DNA of 64,000 nucleotides from a virus: the IMG/VR virus record IMGVR_UViG_3300045988_154953; one strand, 5' to 3'. The stretch's first letter is position 1, and the number at the start of each line of letters is the position of its first letter. The translations under genes were made by a program, and so were the position numbers. A model generated the notes under the pieces. That model was given only the letters and a program-made list of their open reading frames with translations. It was not told where the DNA came from and did not search any database. Shown in pieces: positions 494-28,507 of the stretch.

Positions 494-516
494 TTTAGAT
501 TAGGAAGATTTTGAGA

Positions 517-1407
517 ATGGAATTATTAGGGAGATATAAGAATGGTAATTTTACGACTACCATCTTGAGTAATGGAACAAAGATCAGAGAGACAGACGAG
601 GATGAATTTATTCCAACTTTTGCAGAAAATATGGATATAAAAATAACAAATTTTTGTGATATTGGATGCCCATTCTGTCATGAAGGTAGTACAACATATG
701 GAAAGTTTGGGGATATTCTGAATGAGAAATTCATTGATACACTTCATCTGTATCAAGAAGTTGCTCTTGGTGGTGGTGATGCTACAAGTCATCCTGATTT
801 AATTCCATTTTTACAGAAACTCAAAGATAGAAAAGTTATTGTAAACATGACTGTTAATCAGATCCATTTTGAGAAGAAACAGGAACTTATTAGAAAACTT
901 GTTAATGAAAAACTTATCTATGGTCTTGGTGTATCTCTTGTAAATCCCACAGAAAATTTTATTAAACTCATTAAACAATATCCAAATGCAGTTATCCATG
1001 TAATCAATGGTGTATTAAAGCTATCAGATGTAGAAGCTTTGGAGAATAATAATCTGAAGATGCTGATTCTTGGATACAAACATCTCAGGCGTGGTGGTGA
1101 CTTTTATACAGAAGATCACGACAATATTGTAACTAAACAGAACTGGTTATATGAAAATCTTGTTAATATTATTGATAAGTTCAAGGTCGTTAGTTTTGAT
1201 AATCTTGCAATTGACCAGTTAAATGTCAAAAGATTAATGACTGATGAAGAGTGGAACGAGTTTTATATGGGAGATGATGGCACAATGACTTACTACATTG
1301 ATATGGTAGAACGTAAATTTGCGAAAAGTTCAACGGCTGCATTTGATAAGAGATACAATTTATTGGATTCAGTTGACGATATGTTTCAAAAAATTGTATC
1401 TGAGTAA
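517..1407 (+). CDS. radical SAM domain protein
   Basis: CDIGCPFC is a CX3CX2C cluster motif near the N-terminus, with a glycine-rich LGGGD motif downstream. The track ORF opens at TTG 511, but ATG 517 is better spaced from aggaag. Confidence 0.7.
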   Translation: MELLGRYKNGNFTTTILSNGTKIRETDEDEFIPTFAENMDIKITNFCDIGCPFCHEGSTTYGKFGDILNEKFIDTLHLYQEVALGGGDATSHPDLIPFLQKLKDRKVIVNMTVNQIHFEKKQELIRKLVNEKLIYGLGVSLVNPTENFIKLIKQYPNAVIHVINGVLKLSDVEALENNNLKMLILGYKHLRRGGDFYTEDHDNIVTKQNWLYENLVNIIDKFKVVSFDNLAIDQLNVKRLMTDEEWNEFYMGDDGTMTYYIDMVERKFAKSSTAAFDKRYNLLDSVDDMFQKIVSE

Positions 1408-3652: not shown

Positions 3653-4159
3653 ATGAAGGTTGCATTAACTGGTCATAGACCAGAAAGATTGGGGATGCCT
3701 GATAATGAATTAGATGATAAATGGAATAAAATAAGAGATTGGATTGTAAATAATCTTATACAAATGTTTCAGACAACACTGCTAGAAGATGATTCATTAG
3801 ATGTATATTGCGGAATGGCTACTGGAAGCGACATCTTATTTGGAATGAGTTCTGTTTTTCTAAAAATAGATATTGTTCCTCTGAAGTTACATTGTGTGCT
3901 TCCATGTAAAAATTACAATTCTTCACACAAATATTATAACGATATTAAGCTTCTTGCAGACGAATGGATAGAACTGTCAGAAGAGTTCTATAAAGGTTGT
4001 GATAATGTGAGAGATCAGTACATGGTTGATCACTGTGATGTATTATTGGCTATTTGGGATGGTAATAAATCTGGTGGTGTTTGGTCTACAATTCGAAAAG
4101 TACAAAAAGCTGGAAAACAAATTATATATTGTCCTAAAGAAATAGTAACGGGAGAATAG
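3653..4159 (+). CDS. DUF1273/YoqJ-like SLOG-fold protein (tentative)
   Basis: N-terminal LTGHRPERLG motif and C-terminal LLAIWDGNKSGG motif resemble the DUF1273 family. Confidence 0.45.
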   Translation: MKVALTGHRPERLGMPDNELDDKWNKIRDWIVNNLIQMFQTTLLEDDSLDVYCGMATGSDILFGMSSVFLKIDIVPLKLHCVLPCKNYNSSHKYYNDIKLLADEWIELSEEFYKGCDNVRDQYMVDHCDVLLAIWDGNKSGGVWSTIRKVQKAGKQIIYCPKEIVTGE

Positions 4160-22200: not shown

Positions 22201-22229
22201 TTGACAAAATACAAATATGATGATATAGT
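22201..22229 (+). promoter_or_regulatory. sigma-A type promoter
   Basis: TTGACA (22201-22206), a 17-nt spacer ending in TGA (extended -10), then TATAGT (22224-22229). Confidence 0.6.
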
Positions 22230-22332: not shown

Positions 22333-22762
22333 ATGTATAAACAGATTATTATAGTTAGAAAAGACTTGAACATGTCAATTGGGAAAATTTGCAGTCAAGT
22401 ATCACACGGCTCTATGGCGTTTTTAACAACGTTTATTCGAAATAATACCGACTTAGATGGTCATGTTGATGGATATATAAATGAATGTATATACCATAAA
22501 TGGATCAACGGGTCTTTTACAAAAGTAGTATTAGAATCAAAAAAACAAAAATCAATTACTCAAAGCTGTTAAAATGGCAGAAGATATGGGAATGAATGAA
22601 GGAGTAGATTTCTTTCTTATAAAAGATAATTGTCTTACAGAACTTAAACCAGAAGAATATGATGAAAATGGAGTCGGAAGAACGTTGACATGTATTGGAT
22701 TCCGGCCAATGGATTCAGAAATAATAGATAAAATAGGTAAAAAATTTCAGTTATACAATTAA
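22333..22762 (+). pseudogene. PTH2-type peptidyl-tRNA hydrolase split by a frameshift at an A7 run
   Basis: ORF1 has IIVRKDLNMSIGKICSQVSHGS. ORF2 has DFFLIKDNCLTELKPE..TLTCIGFRP. Together they form one PTH2-like protein. Removing one A from 22539-22545 gives a continuous ..VVLESKNKNQLLKAVKMAEDMG.. Confidence 0.6.
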
Positions 22763-22821: not shown

Positions 22822-23367
22822 ATGAAAAAACGGATTCTTTGTGTAATTGATGTCCAAAATGATTTCATTGATGGGTCACTAGGAACACCAGAAGCACAAG
22901 CTATTATTCCTAATGTTGAGAAAAAGATTGATGAGTATATCACCAATGGTAATCCAATTATTTTTACAAGAGATACACATTTCTTAAATTATTCTAAAAC
23001 TCAGGAAGGTAAAAAACTTCCTATACACCATTGTATTAAAGATACTCATGGATGGCAAATTGGTATTAAAACAACACCTGGATCGTATGAAATTATTAAT
23101 AAATTATCAGTTGGATATTACGATTGGAAGTCATTTCTGAATAAATTTATTAATACATATTTTATAGATGATGAAGATTTGATAATAGAATTAATCGGTC
23201 TTGATACAGATATCTGTGTAATATCAAATGCTATTATTATCAAGGCTGCATATCCAGAAACAAATATTGTTGTTGATGCGTCTTGCTGTGCCGGTTCTAC
23301 ACCAGAAAAACATAAAGCTGCATTAGAAGTTATGAAGAGTTGTCAAATAGATGTGATTGGAGAGTAA
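22822..23367 (+). CDS. pncA: isochorismatase-family nicotinamidase
   Basis: ILCVIDVQNDF, the catalytic-type GLDTDICV motif, size and the NAD gene context. Confidence 0.65.
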   Translation: MKKRILCVIDVQNDFIDGSLGTPEAQAIIPNVEKKIDEYITNGNPIIFTRDTHFLNYSKTQEGKKLPIHHCIKDTHGWQIGIKTTPGSYEIINKLSVGYYDWKSFLNKFINTYFIDDEDLIIELIGLDTDICVISNAIIIKAAYPETNIVVDASCCAGSTPEKHKAALEVMKSCQIDVIGE

Positions 23368-24000
23368 ATGGATAAATATTTAAGCGTTATAACAAATTTT
23401 GGCTGCCATTATACTTGCCCATATTGCATTGTAAAGAACAACAATCTTCATATCCCAAAAACAACAATCGAAGGCTTAGATAACTTAGAGGAAGAAATAA
23501 AGAAAAATAATTGTAATTGGGTATCTATCTCTGGTGGCGGTGATCCACTGTGGAATTTCGAACGAAATAGATTTTGGTATTATAAATTTGCTGCGATTAT
23601 TACTGGATTGGATGTTAATATTGAACTGCATACAAGTATTATTAATCCGCCTTCTTACATTGCATTATTTAAAAGAATAGTTTACCATTTACATAATTTT
23701 GAACAATTATCATTAATTTATCGTTTGAATGATGAAATAGTTAGAGTTGTATTCGTAGTCACAGAAGACTTTACAGAAGAATTAATCGACAAAATAGCAG
23801 CATTTTGTAAAGAATCTAAACAAATTGATGAACTCAGTTTTAGACAAATGGTTGATGATAACTATCAGAACACAGATTATTACAGAGATTATTTACGAGC
23901 TGGCCATCAAAAGGATTGGTGGTACATAGAACAATGTGATTACAATTTATATTACTGTGAGAACAAAATATATACAGAATACAGAATGATTGGAGAGTAA
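23368..24000 (+). CDS. radical SAM domain protein (second copy)
   Basis: ITNFGCHYTCPYC is a CX3CX2C motif, plus SISGGGDPL. The N-terminus resembles the 517..1407 protein (ITNFCDIGCPFC). Confidence 0.65.
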   Translation: MDKYLSVITNFGCHYTCPYCIVKNNNLHIPKTTIEGLDNLEEEIKKNNCNWVSISGGGDPLWNFERNRFWYYKFAAIITGLDVNIELHTSIINPPSYIALFKRIVYHLHNFEQLSLIYRLNDEIVRVVFVVTEDFTEELIDKIAAFCKESKQIDELSFRQMVDDNYQNTDYYRDYLRAGHQKDWWYIEQCDYNLYYCENKIYTEYRMIGE

Positions 24001-24002
24001 AC

Positions 24003-24839
24003 ATGATAAAAATTGATGACGAGATTGTACAGATTGAAAAGTTTCCAGATGGTACACCTAGAATTAATATTGATACGAACGATATTTTAGAAAAGTATAA
24101 TGTTGGTTGCGGATTTATTATAATCACATGGTTGTATGAAAATGATGCTGAGATGTTCTATCTGTTATTAGTTAAGAAACACCTTGAAAGATTTTTTACT
24201 AATGTTGATTACTATTTATATCTTTCATATATACCAAATGCGAGGATGGATAGAACTAAATCAAATGATGAAGTCTTTACATTAAAGTATTTCTGTGACT
24301 TTATCAATTGGTTAAAATTTTCTGTTGTTTATGTATTAGATGCTCATAGTGATGTTTCAGTAGCATTAATTAATAACTGCTTCAATGAAAATCCAAAGAC
24401 TTATATCAATAATGCGCTTACTATAATCGCAAATAATGATATAATTCTATATTTCCCTGATGCTGGTGCAGCTAAACGCTACTCTGGATTATTCCCAGAG
24501 ATTCCTTATTGCTATGGTGAGAAGAATAGAGATTGGAAAACAGGTAAAATCCTTGGACTTAACGTCAGAACTAATGGTATTAAGCTTAAAGGAAAAGATA
24601 TTCTGATTATTGATGATATTTGCAGCTACGGTGGTTCAATATTTTATAGTGCTAAAACATTAAAAGAACTTGGTGTTAATAAAATTTATGCTTATGCAAC
24701 ACATACTGAAAATTCAGTTCTTGACCATGAGAAAGGTACACTTATTAAATCATTAGAAGATGGTACAGTAGAATGTCTATTTACAACCAATAGTTTATTT
24801 ACTGGTAAGCATAACAAAATCAGTGTTATGGAGGTTTAA
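24003..24839 (+). CDS. ribose-phosphate pyrophosphokinase (Prs)-like protein; candidate ADPR-pyrophosphate synthetase
   Basis: N-terminal FPDGT and the PRPP-binding loop ILIIDDICSYGGS. It overlaps the start of the Nampt-like gene. Confidence 0.6.
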   Translation: MIKIDDEIVQIEKFPDGTPRINIDTNDILEKYNVGCGFIIITWLYENDAEMFYLLLVKKHLERFFTNVDYYLYLSYIPNARMDRTKSNDEVFTLKYFCDFINWLKFSVVYVLDAHSDVSVALINNCFNENPKTYINNALTIIANNDIILYFPDAGAAKRYSGLFPEIPYCYGEKNRDWKTGKILGLNVRTNGIKLKGKDILIIDDICSYGGSIFYSAKTLKELGVNKIYAYATHTENSVLDHEKGTLIKSLEDGTVECLFTTNSLFTGKHNKISVMEV

Positions 24840-24840
24840 A

Positions 24841-26310
24841 ATGAATAATATCTCATTTATGTTGATGGCAGATACATATAAAAATACAAATCCAGATGCA
24901 ATGCCTCAAGGATTAACAAAATTAACATCATATATTACACCGAGAAAATCTATGTTTAAAAATATTGATAAAGTAGTTTTCTTTGGTTTACAGGGATTTA
25001 TTAAAGAATTCTTGATTGATTTGGTGAATGATTCTTTCTTTAATAGAGATAGAAAAGAAGTTCTTAATGAATATAAAACATACCTTGATGCACAGATTGG
25101 TTCTCATAGTTATGATATCCAACGAATCGCAGATTTATATGATTTGGGATATCTACCAATTGAGATGAAGGCGCTGCCAGAAGGTTCATTAGTATCAATG
25201 GGTGTTCCATGTATCGAACTTACAAATACTCATCCAGATTTTGCTTGGGTTGTGCAATGGATCGAATGTATATGTCAGTCAGAAACTTTTGGTACATGTA
25301 ATTGGGCTACTATGGCTCATGAGTATCGTAAATTAGCAAATGTATTCTACAACAAAACAACAGACTCTAATCCTGCAATGGCAATGGCCGATTTTGGATT
25401 TAGAGGACTTGGTGTAGATAATGGTATTAGAGCTAGTAGTTCATGGTTGCTGTCATTTAACAAAACTTCTACAATCCCGGCAATGCAGTATATTGATAAA
25501 ATGTATTCTGCAGAATGCGCTAAAAATCATATTGGTATTGGTGCTGTAAGTCTTGAACATGCAACAGTTTGTGCTAATCTTGCTGTATGTGAAACAGAAG
25601 AAAATCTATTAAGAAGATTACTTACAACAGTTTATAAAGATACTTCGTTTAGTTACGTTTCTGATACATTCGATTACTGGTCTCTTATCAATGATACTCT
25701 CCCTAAACTTCGAAAAGAAATTGAAGAACATAATGGTAAATTCCTTGTTCGTCCAGATAGCGGTGATATTGTAGATATTTCTGTTAAAACAGTACAGAGA
25801 TTATGGAAAATTTTTGGTGGAACAGTCAATCTAAAAGGTTATAAAGAATTAGATCCTAAAGTTGGCATCATTTATGGTGATGGTTGTCAATATGAGAAAA
25901 TTAAAGAAATTTGGACAAAGCTTGAAAGTTTAGGTTTTGCTGCAAATACAATTCTTTTTGGTGTTGGTGCATTCTCATTTACAGCTATGTGTACTCCAGA
26001 TGATGGTATGGTTTGTCTCACAAGAGATACATTTGGTTTCGCAATGAAAAGTACAGATTGTGTAATAGATGATCGTGAACATACTATCCAAAAAAATCCT
26101 AAAACTGATCAGAATCATCTAAAAAAATCGCATAAAGGTTTATGTTGTGTAACAAAAGAAGATGATAAATTTGTTTGTCATGATGGTTACACATCCGAAA
26201 CCATTCCAGAAGATAATCTTCTTACAACAGTATTTAAAGATGGAAAACTTGTACGAGAAGATATATTTATAAATATTCGTAATAGATTAAATGGAGAAAA
26301 TGATGATTAA
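24841..26310 (+). CDS. nadV: nicotinamide phosphoribosyltransferase family protein (NadV/Nampt-like)
   Basis: ADTYK, FGFRG, RPDSGD and IYGDG motifs. ATG 24841 follows ggagg, and the track start 24823 lies upstream in frame. Confidence 0.8.
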   Translation: MNNISFMLMADTYKNTNPDAMPQGLTKLTSYITPRKSMFKNIDKVVFFGLQGFIKEFLIDLVNDSFFNRDRKEVLNEYKTYLDAQIGSHSYDIQRIADLYDLGYLPIEMKALPEGSLVSMGVPCIELTNTHPDFAWVVQWIECICQSETFGTCNWATMAHEYRKLANVFYNKTTDSNPAMAMADFGFRGLGVDNGIRASSSWLLSFNKTSTIPAMQYIDKMYSAECAKNHIGIGAVSLEHATVCANLAVCETEENLLRRLLTTVYKDTSFSYVSDTFDYWSLINDTLPKLRKEIEEHNGKFLVRPDSGDIVDISVKTVQRLWKIFGGTVNLKGYKELDPKVGIIYGDGCQYEKIKEIWTKLESLGFAANTILFGVGAFSFTAMCTPDDGMVCLTRDTFGFAMKSTDCVIDDREHTIQKNPKTDQNHLKKSHKGLCCVTKEDDKFVCHDGYTSETIPEDNLLTTVFKDGKLVREDIFINIRNRLNGENDD

Positions 26311-26830
26311 AATTATAGACGGTGATTTATTTAATACGAATGCTAAGTTCATCTGTCATCAAGTAAATTGTCAAGGACAGATGAATTCCGGTGTAGCTTT
26401 ACAAATTAAACAGAAATATCCACATGCATACGAAGAATATATAAAACTTTTAAATCAAACATCTGGTGATGTACTTAGTAAGATTCAAATCATACCAGTT
26501 AAATCAGAATATTTAGAATATGATTGTGGTAGTCTTGCGGTTCCATATACTGAGCAGTGGATTTGTAATATGTTTGCTCAAGATAAATATGGTTATGATG
26601 GAAAAATGTATACATCTCTAGAAGCATTACAGAATTGTTTTACTCAATTGTATTGGCTTACATGTGAGAGGAATAATAATTTCAATGCTAAAATTGCTAT
26701 GCCTTATGGGATTGGTTGCGTAAGAGGCGGAGCTGATTGGAACGTAGTATATAAAATGATAGAGGATACGTTCGTTAATAGAGAAGTAGAATTGTGGAGG
26801 TATGATAAAGATAATAGTAACAGAAGATGA
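26291..26830 (+). CDS. macro domain protein (ADP-ribose binding or hydrolase)
   Basis: IIDGDLFNTNAKFICHQVNCQGQMNSGVALQIK is typical of macro domains. Alternative starts lie at 26300 and 26303. Confidence 0.65.
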   Translation: MEKMMIKIIDGDLFNTNAKFICHQVNCQGQMNSGVALQIKQKYPHAYEEYIKLLNQTSGDVLSKIQIIPVKSEYLEYDCGSLAVPYTEQWICNMFAQDKYGYDGKMYTSLEALQNCFTQLYWLTCERNNNFNAKIAMPYGIGCVRGGADWNVVYKMIEDTFVNREVELWRYDKDNSNRR

Positions 26831-27768
26831 AATTGGAAAAATATATGGATGTTATAAAGTAATAGGTATTGCTAACGATAGAATTTCTCCTCAAGGTCAA
26901 ATTAAAAAGTATTATAAATGTAAATGCATAAATTGTGGAAATACAAAAGAACTTAATGCTTATAAGGTTCGCCATAACAATTATAAATATTGTGAAAAAT
27001 GCAGACCGAAACATAAAGAAACAAAAACTAAAATTGGGAAAAAATTTGGTCATTTAACTGTAGTTGAACGAGCAGATAATTATATTCAACCAAACGGTTC
27101 TATAAAAGTTGTATGGAAATGTTTATGCGAGTGTGGAAATACAATTAATGTTACGGATACACATTTAAAATCTGGCCATACAACAAGTTGTGGTTGTTTT
27201 CACAAAAAGATAATGCAGGATTTTTTAATAAAAGATATTAGCGGTCAAAAATTTGGCAAATTGACAGTATTGGAAAAAGCATATATAAAAAACGGGAGAC
27301 AGTATTGGCATTGTAAATGTGATTGTGGGAAAACTTGCATTGCATATACGACATCTTTGTTATCTGGGAAAAGAAAATCCTGTGGTTGCCTCATATCTAA
27401 AGCAGAATATGAATTAAGTTTATATTTAGACAAATAATATTCCATATGAATCACAATATAAATTTGACGATTGTAAAGATATAAGATGTTTACCTTTTGA
27501 TTTTGTTATATTTGATAAAAATAAAAATATAACAATGGCTATCGAATTAAATGGTGCACAACATTATCATCCTTTTACATATTCCAATGAAGATAAAGTA
27601 ACTCAAATATTGAATTTAAAAGACAGGCAGAAAAAAGATAAAATTAAACGAGATTATTGTCTCAAAAATAATATTCCGTTATTAGTAGTTAAATACACAA
27701 ACTTTAATAAAAAAGAAGAACTTTTTGATAATTTCTATAAAAATATTGTAGGGGAAAAATATGCATAA
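26802..27768 (+). pseudogene. zinc-ribbon-repeat plus PD-(D/E)XK-like endonuclease gene, split by a 1-nt frame change
   Basis: It has three repeats of GxxFGxLTVxExA..WxCxCxCG. The downstream frame is open from 27430 and encodes ..YKFDDCKDIRCLPFDFVIFD..IELNGAQHY. Skipping one base around 27432-27437 fuses the two parts. Confidence 0.45.
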
Positions 27769-28507
27769 CTTTAACGTAAAAAATGTGACAGATGATGTTG
27801 TTAAATGGGTTAAAAATTTATTTGAAAAAAACTTTCCTGAAAAAAATTGTTGCATTGCTTTATCTGGAGGGAAAGATTCTAGTGTTGTAGCCGCTATTAG
27901 TGTGAATGCATTAGGGAGAGATAAGGTTAAAGCTATAATGTTGCCGCAGCACGAACAAGCAGATATTGATTATAGTATTTTATGTGCAGAACATTTAGGA
28001 ATTGAATACAAAATTATTAATATTGGAGAAACTGTAGATTCTATTATATCTGAAATGAAATCCAACGGAGTAAATATTACAGAACAAGCAATTACTAATG
28101 TTCCTGCAAGAATACGAATGGCAGAATTGTACTTCTATGCTCAATGTAACAACGGCATTCCCAGTTGTAATTGCAATCTTTCAGAAGATTGGGTTGGATA
28201 TGCAACTTATGGTGGTGATGGATTTGGATCTTTTGCACCATTGTCAAATCTTACTGTAACAGAAGTCAAAGCAATTGGCAGAGAGCTTGGACTTCCAAAA
28301 GAACTGATTGAAAAAATACCAACAGATGGCTTATGCGGGAAAACAGATGAAGATAACCTTGGATTTACATACGATGTACTGGATAAATATATCAGAACCG
28401 GTAAAATTGACGATTTGTCAGTAAAAGAAAAGATTGATTCTATGCATGAAAAGAATCTGTTTAAGTTACAACCAATGCCATACTTTAAATATACGCCAAA
28501 TAATTAG
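27761..28507 (+). CDS. nadE: NH3-dependent NAD+ synthetase
   Basis: PP-loop ALSGGKDSSV, size about 248 aa and the NAD gene context. Confidence 0.75.
   Translation: MHNFNVKNVTDDVVKWVKNLFEKNFPEKNCCIALSGGKDSSVVAAISVNALGRDKVKAIMLPQHEQADIDYSILCAEHLGIEYKIINIGETVDSIISEMKSNGVNITEQAITNVPARIRMAELYFYAQCNNGIPSCNCNLSEDWVGYATYGGDGFGSFAPLSNLTVTEVKAIGRELGLPKELIEKIPTDGLCGKTDEDNLGFTYDVLDKYIRTGKIDDLSVKEKIDSMHEKNLFKLQPMPYFKYTPNN

What the first reader, a model, noticed from the sequence alone, without database searches (positions are those of the whole stretch)
22822..28507. Six-gene NAD+ island: nicotinamidase, radical SAM, Prs-like, Nampt-like, macro domain and NadE
The overlapping Prs-like (24003-24839) and Nampt-like (24841-26310) gene pair has two possible readings. 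It may be the classical NadV salvage pair. It may instead be the architecture described for the phage NARP1 pathway, in which ADPR-pyrophosphate synthetase Adps plus nicotinamide ADPR-transferase Namat rebuilds NAD+ from ADP-ribose and nicotinamide after immune NADase attack. Here the pair is combined with a PncA-type nicotinamidase, a NadE NAD synthetase, a macro domain (ADP-ribose processing) and an uncharacterised radical SAM enzyme. No PncB or NadD is seen, so the deamidated route would be incomplete on its own. The combination looks like an unusually broad counter-defence or NAD-buffering module.
Basis: partly seen in the sequence, partly recalled or inferred. Interest (0 to 1): 0.65.

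Follow-up and report, generated by a model that had tools for sequence, protein, structure and literature searches.

The report
Nicotinate-routed phage NAD+ rebuilding cassette
This phage operon looks like a new version of the known NARP1 counter-defence pathway: it appears to rebuild NAD+ from the debris left by bacterial NAD-destroying immunity by going through nicotinic acid and deamido-NAD, which would explain why it carries a nicotinamidase and an NAD synthetase.

Summary
The six genes are real and tightly packed. All are under purifying selection (dN/dS 0.06-0.26).

The Prs-like and Nampt-like pair belongs with the validated phage Adps/Namat enzymes, not with housekeeping Prs/NadV. The macro protein belongs to the Poa1p-like family already described as the NARP1-AP phosphatase Adpp.

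The new point concerns the Namat-like enzyme. It lacks the Asp that hydrogen-bonds nicotinamide (SPbetaL1 Asp215, human NAMPT Asp219). It has Ser210 instead, as NAPRTs do. Three further positions (human NAMPT 191, 217, 244) are also changed.

Across 192 related viral loci with adequate flanks:
- Ser or Ala at this site occurs in 133 loci. 131 of these have PncA, NadE and Adps within 6 kb.
- Asp or Glu occurs in 59 loci. None has PncA or NadE nearby.

Sibling phages keep near-identical PncA-rSAM and NadE frames but carry PncB-NadD in place of Adps-Namat-macro. This swap happened at least 7-11 times.

Best reading (confidence 0.6, sequence inference only):
- PncA converts nicotinamide to nicotinate.
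- Adps makes ADPR-PP.
- The Namat-like enzyme joins nicotinate to ADPR-PP to give NaAD.
- NadE amidates NaAD to NAD+.

The radical SAM gene is a conserved partner of unknown role. A frameshifted homing endonuclease is inserted before nadE.

The parts
22201..22229 (+). Sigma-70-like promoter candidate (TTGACA-17-TATAGT with a TG extension). It lies upstream of the PTH2 gene and the island. Tentative.
   Evidence: 11 of 12 consensus matches. Promoter-like sites are not enriched over shuffled sequence in this region, so this is only a candidate. No convincing + strand terminator lies inside 22822-28507.
22822..23367 (+). PncA-type nicotinamidase (181 aa). Proposed step 1: nicotinamide to nicotinate plus NH3.
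   Evidence: Pfam Isochorismatase 3e-24. Best solved relative is P. horikoshii pyrazinamidase/nicotinamidase 1ILW. Asp10, Lys94, Cys133 and the Asp51/His53/His69-70 metal site are conserved. It is present next to the Ser/Ala-type Namat in 131 of 133 loci. dN/dS is 0.20.
23368..24000 (+). Small radical SAM protein (210 aa; CX3CX2C at 13-20, SGGGDP at 55-60). Role unknown. It is a conserved neighbour of PncA.
   Evidence: phrog_17662 1e-69 (unknown function); weak Pfam and NrdG2 matches only. The AF2 model has pLDDT 91, but Foldseek finds only the generic radical SAM core: HydE, LIAS, viperin, BlsE, QueE at TM 0.5-0.6. It lies directly after PncA in both cassette types. It also occurs without NAD genes. 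dN/dS is 0.06-0.08.
24003..24839 (+). Adps-type ADPR pyrophosphokinase (278 aa). Proposed step: ADPR plus ATP to ADPR-PP plus AMP.
   Evidence: It fails the Prs family cut-offs: TIGR01251 scores 69.8 against 113, and NF002095 scores 72.6 against 296. BLASTP gives 130 bits and 36% identity to validated SPbetaL1 Adps, 129 bits to FADO Adps, and 55 bits and 24% identity to E. coli Prs. It shares Adps-specific motif variants: PNARMDR, DxHSDV, the conserved loop Lys (SPbetaL1 K162 equivalent) and DDxxS[YF]GG in place of the Prs motif DDMIDTGGT.
24841..26310 (+). Namat-like ADPR-PP transferase (489 aa) with an altered pyridine pocket. Proposed reaction: nicotinate plus ADPR-PP to NaAD plus PPi.

Key sites:
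- K208-T209-S210-T211, nt 25462-25473. Ser210 corresponds to SPbetaL1 Asp215 and human Asp219.
- Ser237, which corresponds to SPbetaL1 Ala242.
- Ala183 in place of human His191.
- An insertion in the selectivity-clamp helix (SCH), within residues 376-396, nt 25966-26028.
   Evidence: The best solved relative is SPbetaL1 Namat 9W5X (322 bits), against about 137 bits for mammalian Nampt. The catalytic core is conserved: Tyr18, Phe193, Arg196, His247, Arg311, Asp313 (human numbering) and others. The structural role of Asp215 and Ala242 is given in PMC12774641.
26291..26830 (+). Poa1p-like macro domain protein (Adpp type). Proposed reaction: ADPR-1''-phosphate to ADPR.
   Evidence: Pfam Macro 4e-5; phrog_335 'phosphatase' 9e-39. 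PDB hits are DarG macro 5M31 and yeast Poa1p 6LFQ. BLASTP gives 3e-23 to the NARP1-associated macro of Vibrio phage RYC and 6e-7 to the assayed Vibrio phage Gary Adpp. It is 44.6% identical to FADO fado_33. The HNH insertion changed only its last few residues.
26811..27778 (+). Inserted HNH-family homing endonuclease gene. It is frameshifted into two ORFs, 26802-27437 and 27535-27768. It is an intruder, not part of the pathway.
   Evidence: phrog_374 and phrog_559 HNH/homing endonuclease. The window is collinear with L040 on both sides, but 968 bp here replace about 19 bp there. L040 and L041 have macro abutting nadE.
27761..28507 (+). NH3-dependent NAD synthetase NadE (248 aa). Proposed last step: NaAD plus NH3 plus ATP to NAD+.
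   Evidence: Pfam NAD_synthase 6.5e-45. TIGR00552 is above cut-off. PDB relatives are 2E18 (129 bits), Francisella NadE 3FIU (102 bits) and B. subtilis 1EE1 (56 bits). NadE from PncB-NadD cassettes and from Adps-Namat cassettes reach 99% identity. dN/dS is 0.22.

Best explanation
The island is a nicotinate-routed variant of the phage NAD+ reconstitution pathway NARP1-AP. It would act after a host immune NADase splits NAD+ into ADPR (or ADPR-1''-phosphate) and nicotinamide.

Proposed steps:
1. PncA deamidates nicotinamide to nicotinate.
2. The macro protein (Adpp type) removes the 1''-phosphate where needed.
3. Adps pyrophosphorylates ADPR to ADPR-PP.
4. The Namat-like enzyme joins nicotinate, not nicotinamide, to ADPR-PP. 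The product is deamido-NAD (NaAD).
5. NadE amidates NaAD to NAD+.

Shown here by sequence and comparative data:
- The family assignment of each gene.
- The loss of the nicotinamide-binding Asp in the Namat-like enzyme.
- The near-absolute linkage of that loss with PncA and NadE.
- The repeated swapping of Adps-Namat-macro with PncB-NadD inside the same PncA-rSAM...NadE frame.

Inferred, not shown:
- Every substrate and product.
- The anti-defence phenotype.
- Any role of the radical SAM protein.
For: 1. Adps/Namat identity.
- The Prs-like protein fails the Prs cut-offs and is closer to validated Adps (130 bits) than to E. coli Prs (55 bits). It has Adps-type motifs.
- The Nampt-like protein's best solved relative is SPbetaL1 Namat (322 bits against 137 for Nampt).

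2. Pocket change.
- In the SPbetaL1 Namat-nicotinamide crystal, the pocket is Phe189, Arg192, Asp215, Ala242, Arg306, Asp13' and Tyr15'. Asp215 makes the hydrogen bond to nicotinamide (PMC12774641).
- The window enzyme has Ser210 and Ser237 at the Asp215 and Ala242 positions. It has Lys208 at human Gly217 and Ala at human His191. The alignment there is gapless.
- Human NAMPT D219S 'switches the substrate affinity'. H191, G217 and A244 are sites of NAMPT mutations that prevent inhibitor binding (PMC4919578 Table 2; PMC7096376).
- The equivalent Asp is a Ser in NAPRTs. The negative charge is argued to disfavour nicotinate (PMC10907753).

3. Linkage with gene context, among loci with at least 3 kb of flank.
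- Ser/Ala at this position: 133 loci, of which 131 have PncA, NadE and Adps within 6 kb.
- Asp/Glu at this position: 59 loci, none with PncA or NadE.
- The Ser/Ala enzymes form three sequence types. NJ bootstrap analysis places them in at least two lineages.

4. Module swap.
- Sibling phages carry PncA-rSAM-DUF5662-PncB-NadD-NadE.
- PncA, rSAM and NadE from the two cassette types reach 98-100% identity. Their trees need at least 7-11 switches of cassette type.
- L065 and L047 are collinear at 85-92% nucleotide identity through PncA-rSAM and from nadE onward. The middles are unrelated.
- PncB+NadD turn nicotinate into NaAD. An interchangeable middle is therefore expected to do the same.

5. No phage NadD or PncB is needed.
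- None is found in the window.
- None is found in the complete 136-kb phAss-1 genome, which has the same cassette.

6. All six genes are under purifying selection.
Against: - No enzyme here has been assayed. Substrate switching is inferred from one well-studied residue and its neighbours.
- Human D219S is known to me (from memory of Khan et al. 2006) to accept both bases, so the phage enzyme could be dual-specific.
- The SCH clamp that binds the adenine of ADPR-PP is not canonical in the window's clade. The aromatic at motif position 7 (SPbetaL1 Tyr396) is lost and a 10-aa loop is inserted. Use of ADPR-PP by this clade is therefore less certain than for the phAss-1 clade, which keeps the canonical clamp.
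- The 131-versus-0 association rests on only two or three evolutionary origins, so it is not 190 independent observations.
- The window NadE's second-best solved relative is the NaMN-preferring Francisella enzyme, so its substrate is not fixed by sequence.
- A longer, more ATP-costly route needs a selective rationale that I can only guess at.
Confidence: 0.6

Rival explanations
1. This is canonical NARP1-AP plus boosters. The Namat-like enzyme still uses nicotinamide and makes NAD+ directly. PncA and NadE form a parallel branch. That branch feeds surplus nicotinamide into the host's own PncB and NadD (Preiss-Handler route) and speeds its last step.
For: - The Adps, Namat and macro assignments hold.
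- The catalytic core is fully conserved.
- Human D219S, by my recollection, retains some nicotinamide use.
- No phage PncB or NadD is present, so host enzymes would be needed. Hosts generally have them (established knowledge of bacterial NAD metabolism).
Against: - It does not explain why every PncA/NadE-linked Namat has lost the nicotinamide-binding Asp and remodelled positions 191, 217 and 244.
- It does not explain why Asp/Glu-type NARP1 operons never carry PncA or NadE (0 of 59).
- It does not explain why the Adps-Namat middle is exchanged one-for-one with PncB-NadD in otherwise near-identical frames.
- PncA would compete with Namat for nicotinamide.
Confidence: 0.22
2. The Namat-like enzyme is a NAPRT analogue acting on PRPP. 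It makes NaMN from nicotinate and PRPP, and the Prs-like protein supplies the PRPP. Host NadD then makes NaAD and phage NadE finishes. Alternatively, NadE amidates NaMN to NMN, as in Francisella.
For: - The pocket has an NAPRT-like Ser.
- SPbetaL1 Namat retains PRPP-dependent activity in vitro (PMC12774641).
- The adenine clamp is degenerate in the window clade.
- NadE resembles Francisella NadE 3FIU.
Against: - The Prs-like protein carries Adps-specific motifs, not Prs motifs, and fails the Prs cut-offs.
- The phAss-1 clade has the same pocket change with a fully canonical adenine clamp.
- The route would need an adenylyltransferase that neither the cassette nor the complete phAss-1 genome encodes.
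- It would not replace both PncB and NadD, as the swap implies.
Confidence: 0.08
3. This is classical housekeeping-type salvage. Prs makes PRPP, NadV makes NMN, and the other genes are unrelated auxiliary metabolic genes.
For: Annotation-level names in PHROGs and NCBIfam are 'ribose-phosphate pyrophosphokinase' and 'nicotinamide phosphoribosyl transferase'.
Against: - Scores are below the Prs family cut-offs.
- The proteins are closer to validated Adps and Namat.
- No NMN adenylyltransferase is present.
- The nicotinamide-binding Asp is absent.
- Linkage with PncA and NadE is tight.
Confidence: 0.04
4. PncA, rSAM and NadE are leftovers of an ancestral Preiss-Handler cassette. They have no function in the present arrangement.
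For: The cassette frame is shared with PncB-NadD versions.
Against: - All three are intact and under purifying selection (dN/dS 0.06-0.22).
- They are retained in more than 130 diverged loci, including a different gene order in L002 and the unrelated phage phAss-1.
Confidence: 0.03

Closest known systems
NARP1 (Adps + Namat), Osterman et al. 2024; Namat structure, Lan et al. NAR 2026 (PMC12774641)
   Same: - An Adps-clade Prs homologue sits directly upstream of a Namat-clade Nampt homologue.
- The catalytic core is conserved.
- The setting is a phage.
- The expected input is ADPR released by immune NADases.
   Different: - The nicotinamide-binding Asp215 is Ser, and Ala242 is Ser.
- His191 and Gly217 (human numbering) are changed.
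- The SCH motif GSX-Phi-X-Phi-X-Phi-TRD carries a 10-aa insertion and lacks the position-7 aromatic.
- PncA and NadE are obligatory partners.
- The predicted product is NaAD rather than NAD+.
NARP1-AP (Adps + Namat + macro phosphatase Adpp), Osterman et al. 2026 preprint 10.64898/2026.01.28.702374
   Same: A Poa1p-like macro gene lies inside the operon. It is homologous to the proteins in that paper's Table S1.
   Different: - The gene order is Adps-Namat-macro, not Adps-macro-Namat.
- The macro is only 23% identical to the assayed Gary Adpp.
- That paper's Table S1 lists no host named Bacillus or Clostridi* (text search), and it does not mention PncA or NadE.
Preiss-Handler salvage (PncA, PncB, NadD, NadE). 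Phage versions were noted at annotation level in PMC11662467.
   Same: The first and last enzymes (PncA, NadE) are the same. The frame is the same as the full PncA-rSAM-DUF5662-PncB-NadD-NadE cassette of sibling phages.
   Different: PncB and NadD are replaced by Adps and the Namat-like enzyme. The ribose-phosphate-adenylate part would therefore come from ADPR rather than from PRPP plus ATP.
Human NAMPT D219S and NAPRT enzymes
   Same: Ser stands at the position that recognises the amide. In NAMPT this change switches base preference, and NAPRTs naturally have Ser there.
   Different: The enzyme is a phage Namat-clade protein that presumably uses ADPR-PP. It is not an engineered mutant and not a PRPP-dependent NAPRT.

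Membership tests
NARP1 (Adps/Namat) | An Adps-clade Prs homologue, distinct from cellular Prs, lies adjacent to the Namat gene. | tested here: met
   Scores are below the Prs cut-offs. BLASTP gives 130 bits to SPbetaL1 Adps and 55 bits to E. coli Prs. Adps-type motifs are present. A 1-nt gap separates it from the next gene.
NARP1 (Adps/Namat) | Namat catalytic core shared with Nampt: Tyr18, Phe193, Arg196, His247, Arg311, Asp313 and the Gly/Lys phosphate binders. | tested here: met
   All are conserved in the window protein.
NARP1 (Adps/Namat) | Nicotinamide-binding Asp (SPbetaL1 Asp215, human Asp219). | tested here: not met
   Ser210 stands in a gapless alignment: KTSTIPA against GTDTIPA.
NARP1 (Adps/Namat) | SCH signature GSX-Phi-X-Phi-X-Phi-TRD with aromatics at positions 3 and 7. 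| tested here: not met
   The window has GAFSFTAM+CTPDDGMVCL+TRD. The position-3 Phe is kept, the position-7 aromatic is lost, and there is a 10-aa insertion.
NARP1 (Adps/Namat) | Makes ADPR-PP from ADPR plus ATP, and NAD+ from ADPR-PP plus nicotinamide. Counters NAD-depleting defence. | not testable with these tools
   Needs enzyme assays and infection assays.
NARP1-AP | A Poa1p-like macro gene is embedded in the NARP1 operon. | tested here: met
NARP1-AP | ADPR-1''-phosphate phosphatase activity. | not testable with these tools
   There is only homology: 23% identity and E 6e-7 to the assayed Gary Adpp.
Preiss-Handler pathway | PncA nicotinamidase with the catalytic triad and metal site. | tested here: met
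Preiss-Handler pathway | PncB (NAPRT) and NadD are present. | tested here: not met
   There is no hit in the window. Both are present in sibling cassettes such as L052.
Preiss-Handler pathway | NadE NAD synthetase. | tested here: met
   TIGR00552 scores 152.6 against a cut-off of 63.65.
Classical Prs + NadV salvage (NARP2-like) | A bona fide Prs, a nicotinamide-specific NadV and an NMN adenylyltransferase. | tested here: not met
   The Prs cut-offs are failed. The Asp is absent. No CTP_transf_like or NMNAT family is found in the window.

The most novel reading that the evidence does not exclude
The cassette defines a further phage NAD+ reconstitution route. A Namat paralogue has switched its base from nicotinamide to nicotinate, so ADPR is rebuilt into NaAD and only then amidated.

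The detour itself may be adaptive. For example, NaAD might be a poor substrate for SIR2/TIR immune NADases. Alternatively, the ATP-driven NadE step might make reconstitution irreversible.

The always-adjacent radical SAM protein would be a genuine extra catalytic or regulatory component of pyridine handling under anaerobic conditions.
Probability: 0.15. Interest if true: 0.9.

Novelty: new variant of a known kind. Interest (0 to 1): 0.8.

Why it matters
NAD+ depletion is one of the most common bacterial anti-phage strategies. NARP1 is the commonest known phage answer to it.

If the prediction holds, three things follow:
- A large group of phages has re-plumbed NARP1 through nicotinate and NaAD. 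The group comprises more than 130 contigs here. Many come from a few metagenome samples, and human-gut records are among them.
- This would add a new enzyme activity, nicotinate:ADPR-PP transferase.
- It would explain why nicotinamidase and NAD synthetase genes occur in phages.

It also provides a simple sequence rule for separating the two pathway types in annotation: Asp/Glu versus Ser/Ala at the position of SPbetaL1 Asp215. The repeated clean swap with PncB-NadD is a natural experiment showing that the two modules are functionally equivalent. All of this is directly testable with four purified proteins.

Tried and rejected
1. I first mis-indexed human Asp219 as the Asp of 'HDFGYRG', which is really His191-Asp192-Phe193. 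From that I wrongly concluded that the specificity Asp was retained. Re-indexing against native numbering corrected this.

2. Megablast of the island against the phage collection found no match.

3. I guessed a region of the KVP40 genome to obtain a NadV anchor. It did not contain the gene. I therefore have no NARP2 NadV anchor in the tree.

4. PDB 9KE8/9KEO is the third-best solved relative, and I could not identify it. A literature search found nothing. Its best phage match is only 58% identical, to SPbetaL1 Namat.

5. The genome-contig scan for a host or prophage gave one distant Bacilli MAG hit. The host remains unknown. It is presumably a low-GC anaerobe, because the window has 30% GC and encodes NrdD/NrdG.

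6. The structure and fold search of the radical SAM protein gave only the generic fold.

7. The small ORF that replaces the macro gene in some relatives looks HAD-like by eye (DFDDT motif). It has no Pfam or PDB sequence hit, and it could not be submitted for folding.

10. I rejected the idea that the island's radical SAM is the phage's NrdG. A separate strong NrdG (Fer4_12, 4e-44) is present elsewhere in the window.

Full report
**Observation**

Family searches confirm each one:
- An isochorismatase/PncA-type protein (Pfam 3e-24).
- A small radical SAM protein with CX3CX2C (weak Pfam match; phrog_17662 at 1e-69, function unknown).
- A Prs-like protein.
- A Nampt-like protein.
- A macro domain protein.
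- NadE (Pfam 6.5e-45; TIGR00552 above cut-off).

PncA keeps the Asp/Lys/Cys triad and the Asp-x-His...His metal site of P. horikoshii nicotinamidase.

A 968-bp HNH-family homing-endonuclease gene lies at 26811-27778 between the macro gene and nadE, and it is itself split into two reading frames. The window is collinear with the close relative L040 on both sides, and there about 19 bp stand in its place.

A strong promoter-like site lies at 22201-22229, upstream of a frameshifted PTH2 gene. No convincing terminator interrupts the island.

The window has about 30% GC. It encodes its own NrdD/NrdG, a dUTPase, an integrase and a TnpB-like protein. It holds no PncB, NadD or other NMN adenylyltransferase.

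**Adps/Namat or Prs/NadV**

The Prs-like protein scores 70-73 bits against Prs models whose cut-offs are 113-296 bits.
- It is 36% identical (130 bits) to the biochemically validated SPbetaL1 Adps.
- It scores 129 bits to FADO Adps.
- It is only 24% identical (55 bits) to E. coli Prs.
- It shares Adps-specific versions of the Prs motifs: PNARMDR, DxHSDV, the loop Lys equivalent to SPbetaL1 K162, and DDxxS[YF]GG instead of DDMIDTGGT.

The Nampt-like protein's best solved relative is SPbetaL1 Namat (9W5X/9W5W). It scores 322 bits there, against about 137 bits for mammalian Nampt.

The pair is therefore of the NARP1 kind. I have no NARP2 NadV anchor, so this rests on scores, motifs and adjacency rather than on a full phylogeny.

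**The macro domain**

Its nearest solved relatives are a DarG macro domain and yeast Poa1p, an ADPR-1''-phosphate phosphatase.

A 2026 preprint shows that Poa1p-like macro proteins embedded in NARP1 operons (Adpp) dephosphorylate ADPR-1''-phosphate, and that this lets NARP1 overcome the RES-domain defence aRES. The extended pathway is called NARP1-AP.

The window protein matches proteins in that paper's Table S1. It matches Vibrio phage RYC at E 3e-23 and the assayed Gary Adpp at E 6e-7 with 23% identity. This part of the island is already known in kind.

**PncA, NadE and the radical SAM gene are conserved partners**

Scans of viral contigs with the Namat-like protein and with the radical SAM protein returned more than 100 loci. 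PncA and NadE bracket Adps-Namat in these loci, usually with the macro gene present, at protein identities of 41-85%.

The same block occurs in other settings:
- In a different gene order in a human faecal phage contig (L002).
- In the complete genome of the unrelated gut phage phAss-1.

In the curated phage collection, PncA homologues occur in only 7 of 50,697 records, all from the human gut.

Close relatives L040 and L041 and the abundant P0019 group have exactly the window's six-gene order.

All six genes show dN/dS of 0.06-0.26 against L040 and L041.

**A module swap**

About twenty of the radical SAM loci have PncA-rSAM, then 2.4 kb, then NadE, with no Adps or Namat. In L052 the 2.4 kb encodes DUF5662, PncB (NAPRTase_N plus NAPRTase, 5e-67) and a NadD-like adenylyltransferase. 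That is a complete Preiss-Handler pathway.

PncA, rSAM and NadE proteins from the two cassette types reach 98-100% identity. Their NJ trees require at least 7-11 switches between types.

L065 and L047 are an example:
- They are collinear at 92% nucleotide identity through PncA-rSAM.
- They are collinear at 85% from the start of nadE onward.
- The middles are unrelated: DUF5662-PncB-NadD in one, Adps-Namat-macro in the other.

PncB plus NadD convert nicotinate to NaAD. A middle that is exchanged with them again and again, inside the same frame, should accept PncA's product and deliver NadE's substrate.

**The Namat-like pocket has changed**

I first mis-indexed the specificity residue. Correct native numbering places human Asp219 in 'GTDT'.

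The published SPbetaL1 Namat-nicotinamide structure lists Phe189, Arg192, Asp215, Ala242, Arg306, Asp13' and Tyr15' as the pocket. Asp215 makes the hydrogen bond to nicotinamide.

The window enzyme differs at four pocket positions, while the whole catalytic core is conserved:
- Ser210 stands for Asp215 (KTSTIPA against GTDTIPA, gapless).
- Ser237 stands for Ala242.
- Lys208 stands at human Gly217.
- Ala stands at human His191.

The literature bears on each of these positions:
- Asp219 defines NAMPT substrate specificity, and D219S switches it.
- H191R, G217R and A244M are NAMPT mutations that prevent inhibitor binding.
- The same Asp is a Ser in NAPRTs.

**How general is the link**

Three further scans gave 170 more loci. 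Among loci with at least 3 kb of flank:

| Residue at human 219 | Loci | With PncA, NadE and Adps within 6 kb |
|---|---|---|
| Ser or Ala | 133 | 131 |
| Asp or Glu | 59 | 0 (none has PncA or NadE) |

The Ser/Ala enzymes fall into three sequence types:
- Ser219/Lys217 with an SCH insertion (the window's type).
- Ala219/Asn217 with an SCH insertion.
- Ala219/Arg217 with a canonical clamp (the phAss-1 type).

By NJ bootstrap the two insertion types form one clade (200 of 200). phAss-1 joins them in only 23 of 200 replicates. The association therefore reflects two or three origins, not 190 independent events.

**Proposed mechanism**

1. PncA turns nicotinamide into nicotinate.
2. The macro protein turns ADPR-1''-phosphate into ADPR.
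3. Adps turns ADPR plus ATP into ADPR-PP.
4. The Namat-like enzyme joins nicotinate to ADPR-PP, giving NaAD.
5. NadE amidates NaAD to NAD+.

This makes the cassette self-sufficient. The complete phAss-1 genome has no PncB or NadD hit.

Caveats:
- Nothing has been assayed.
- The adenine clamp of the window's clade is atypical. It keeps the position-3 Phe, lacks the position-7 aromatic and carries a 10-aa insertion.
- NadE's substrate is not fixed by sequence, since its second-best solved relative is the NaMN-preferring Francisella enzyme.
- The advantage of the longer route is unknown.

I put 0.6 on this reading and 0.22 on canonical NARP1-AP with host-dependent PncA/NadE boosters. The other readings get small weights.

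**The radical SAM protein**

It follows PncA directly in both cassette types, and it is the most constrained gene of the six.

It also occurs in other contexts:
- 3-6 kb downstream of nadE: next to a YpsA-SLOG gene in L007-type relatives, and next to SprT-like and DNA-methylase genes in L050.
- With DUF5662 and a HAD-like ORF, without NAD genes.
- Alone in Listeria phages.

Its confident model matches only the generic radical SAM core. Its role is open.

**Novelty**

Papers on NARP1, NARP1-AP, RyDEP and NARP3, and a survey of viral NAD systems, do not mention PncA, NadE, nicotinate or NaAD in connection with NARP1. Targeted searches found nothing either.

I class the island as a new variant of a known kind.

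Noticed in passing
window 22333-22762: The PTH2 peptidyl-tRNA hydrolase gene is split into two ORFs by a frameshift in or just after an A7 run at about 22540-22552. The relative L041 has an intact 142-aa PTH2. This could be a sequencing error, a pseudogene or programmed slippage.
   Followed up: partly
window 26811-27778; also L021 7310-8008, L054, L075, L048 9136-10335: Homing endonuclease genes have invaded this cassette repeatedly, at different junctions. The window's copy is frameshifted between its Zn-ribbon repeats and its DUF2726-like nuclease domain.
   Followed up: partly
window 3653-4159; L007 14295-14801: A YpsA-SLOG protein in the window is 70% identical to the gene that directly follows, and overlaps, the radical SAM gene in relatives where that gene lies outside the NAD cassette. 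SLOG domains are proposed nucleotide or ADPR binders, so the pairing may be meaningful.
   Followed up: partly
L052 9485-13766 and about 20 other loci: Sibling phages carry a complete Preiss-Handler cassette, PncA-rSAM-DUF5662-PncB-NadD-NadE. DUF5662 is an uncharacterised member of it.
   Followed up: yes
L095 12940-13347; L069; L084; phAss-1 L044 5784-6203; 9 canonical Adps-Namat loci: A 135-148-aa ORF with HAD-like motifs (DFDDT ... T/S ... K ... DD) sits where the macro gene sits in other cassettes. It also lies between Adps and Namat in some canonical operons, so it may be a non-homologous phosphatase replacement. It also occurs next to the radical SAM gene without any NAD genes. It has no Pfam or PDB sequence hit.
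   Followed up: partly
L239-L255 and others (17 loci): A subgroup of canonical Namats has Glu instead of Asp at the nicotinamide-binding position (GSETIPA). Their operons are ordinary Adps-Namat operons.
   Followed up: no
PDB 9KE8/9KEO: This is an unidentified 'nicotinamide phosphoribosyltransferase' chain. It is 58% identical to SPbetaL1 Namat, but its SCH reads GAQTYQRNTRD, with no aromatic at positions 3 and 7. Its origin and activity would help to calibrate the Namat/Nampt boundary.
   Followed up: partly
L003-L031 versus the window: The Namat-like protein is 78-85% identical across relatives whose neighbouring cassette proteins are only 41-68% identical. This indicates mosaic recombination within the cassette.
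   Followed up: no
window 511-1407, and two ORFs in 1-45 kb matching NRDD: The window holds a second, larger radical SAM protein that is conserved in relatives (77% identity to L008 12600-13496). The anaerobic ribonucleotide reductase appears as two NRDD-matching ORFs, together with a proper NrdG.
   Followed up: no
phAss-1 (OQ749652) 96860-101298: A gut phage that uses genetic code 15 (TAG recoded) carries the same PncA-Adps-Namat-small ORF-NadE block, amid a large tRNA array.
   Followed up: partly
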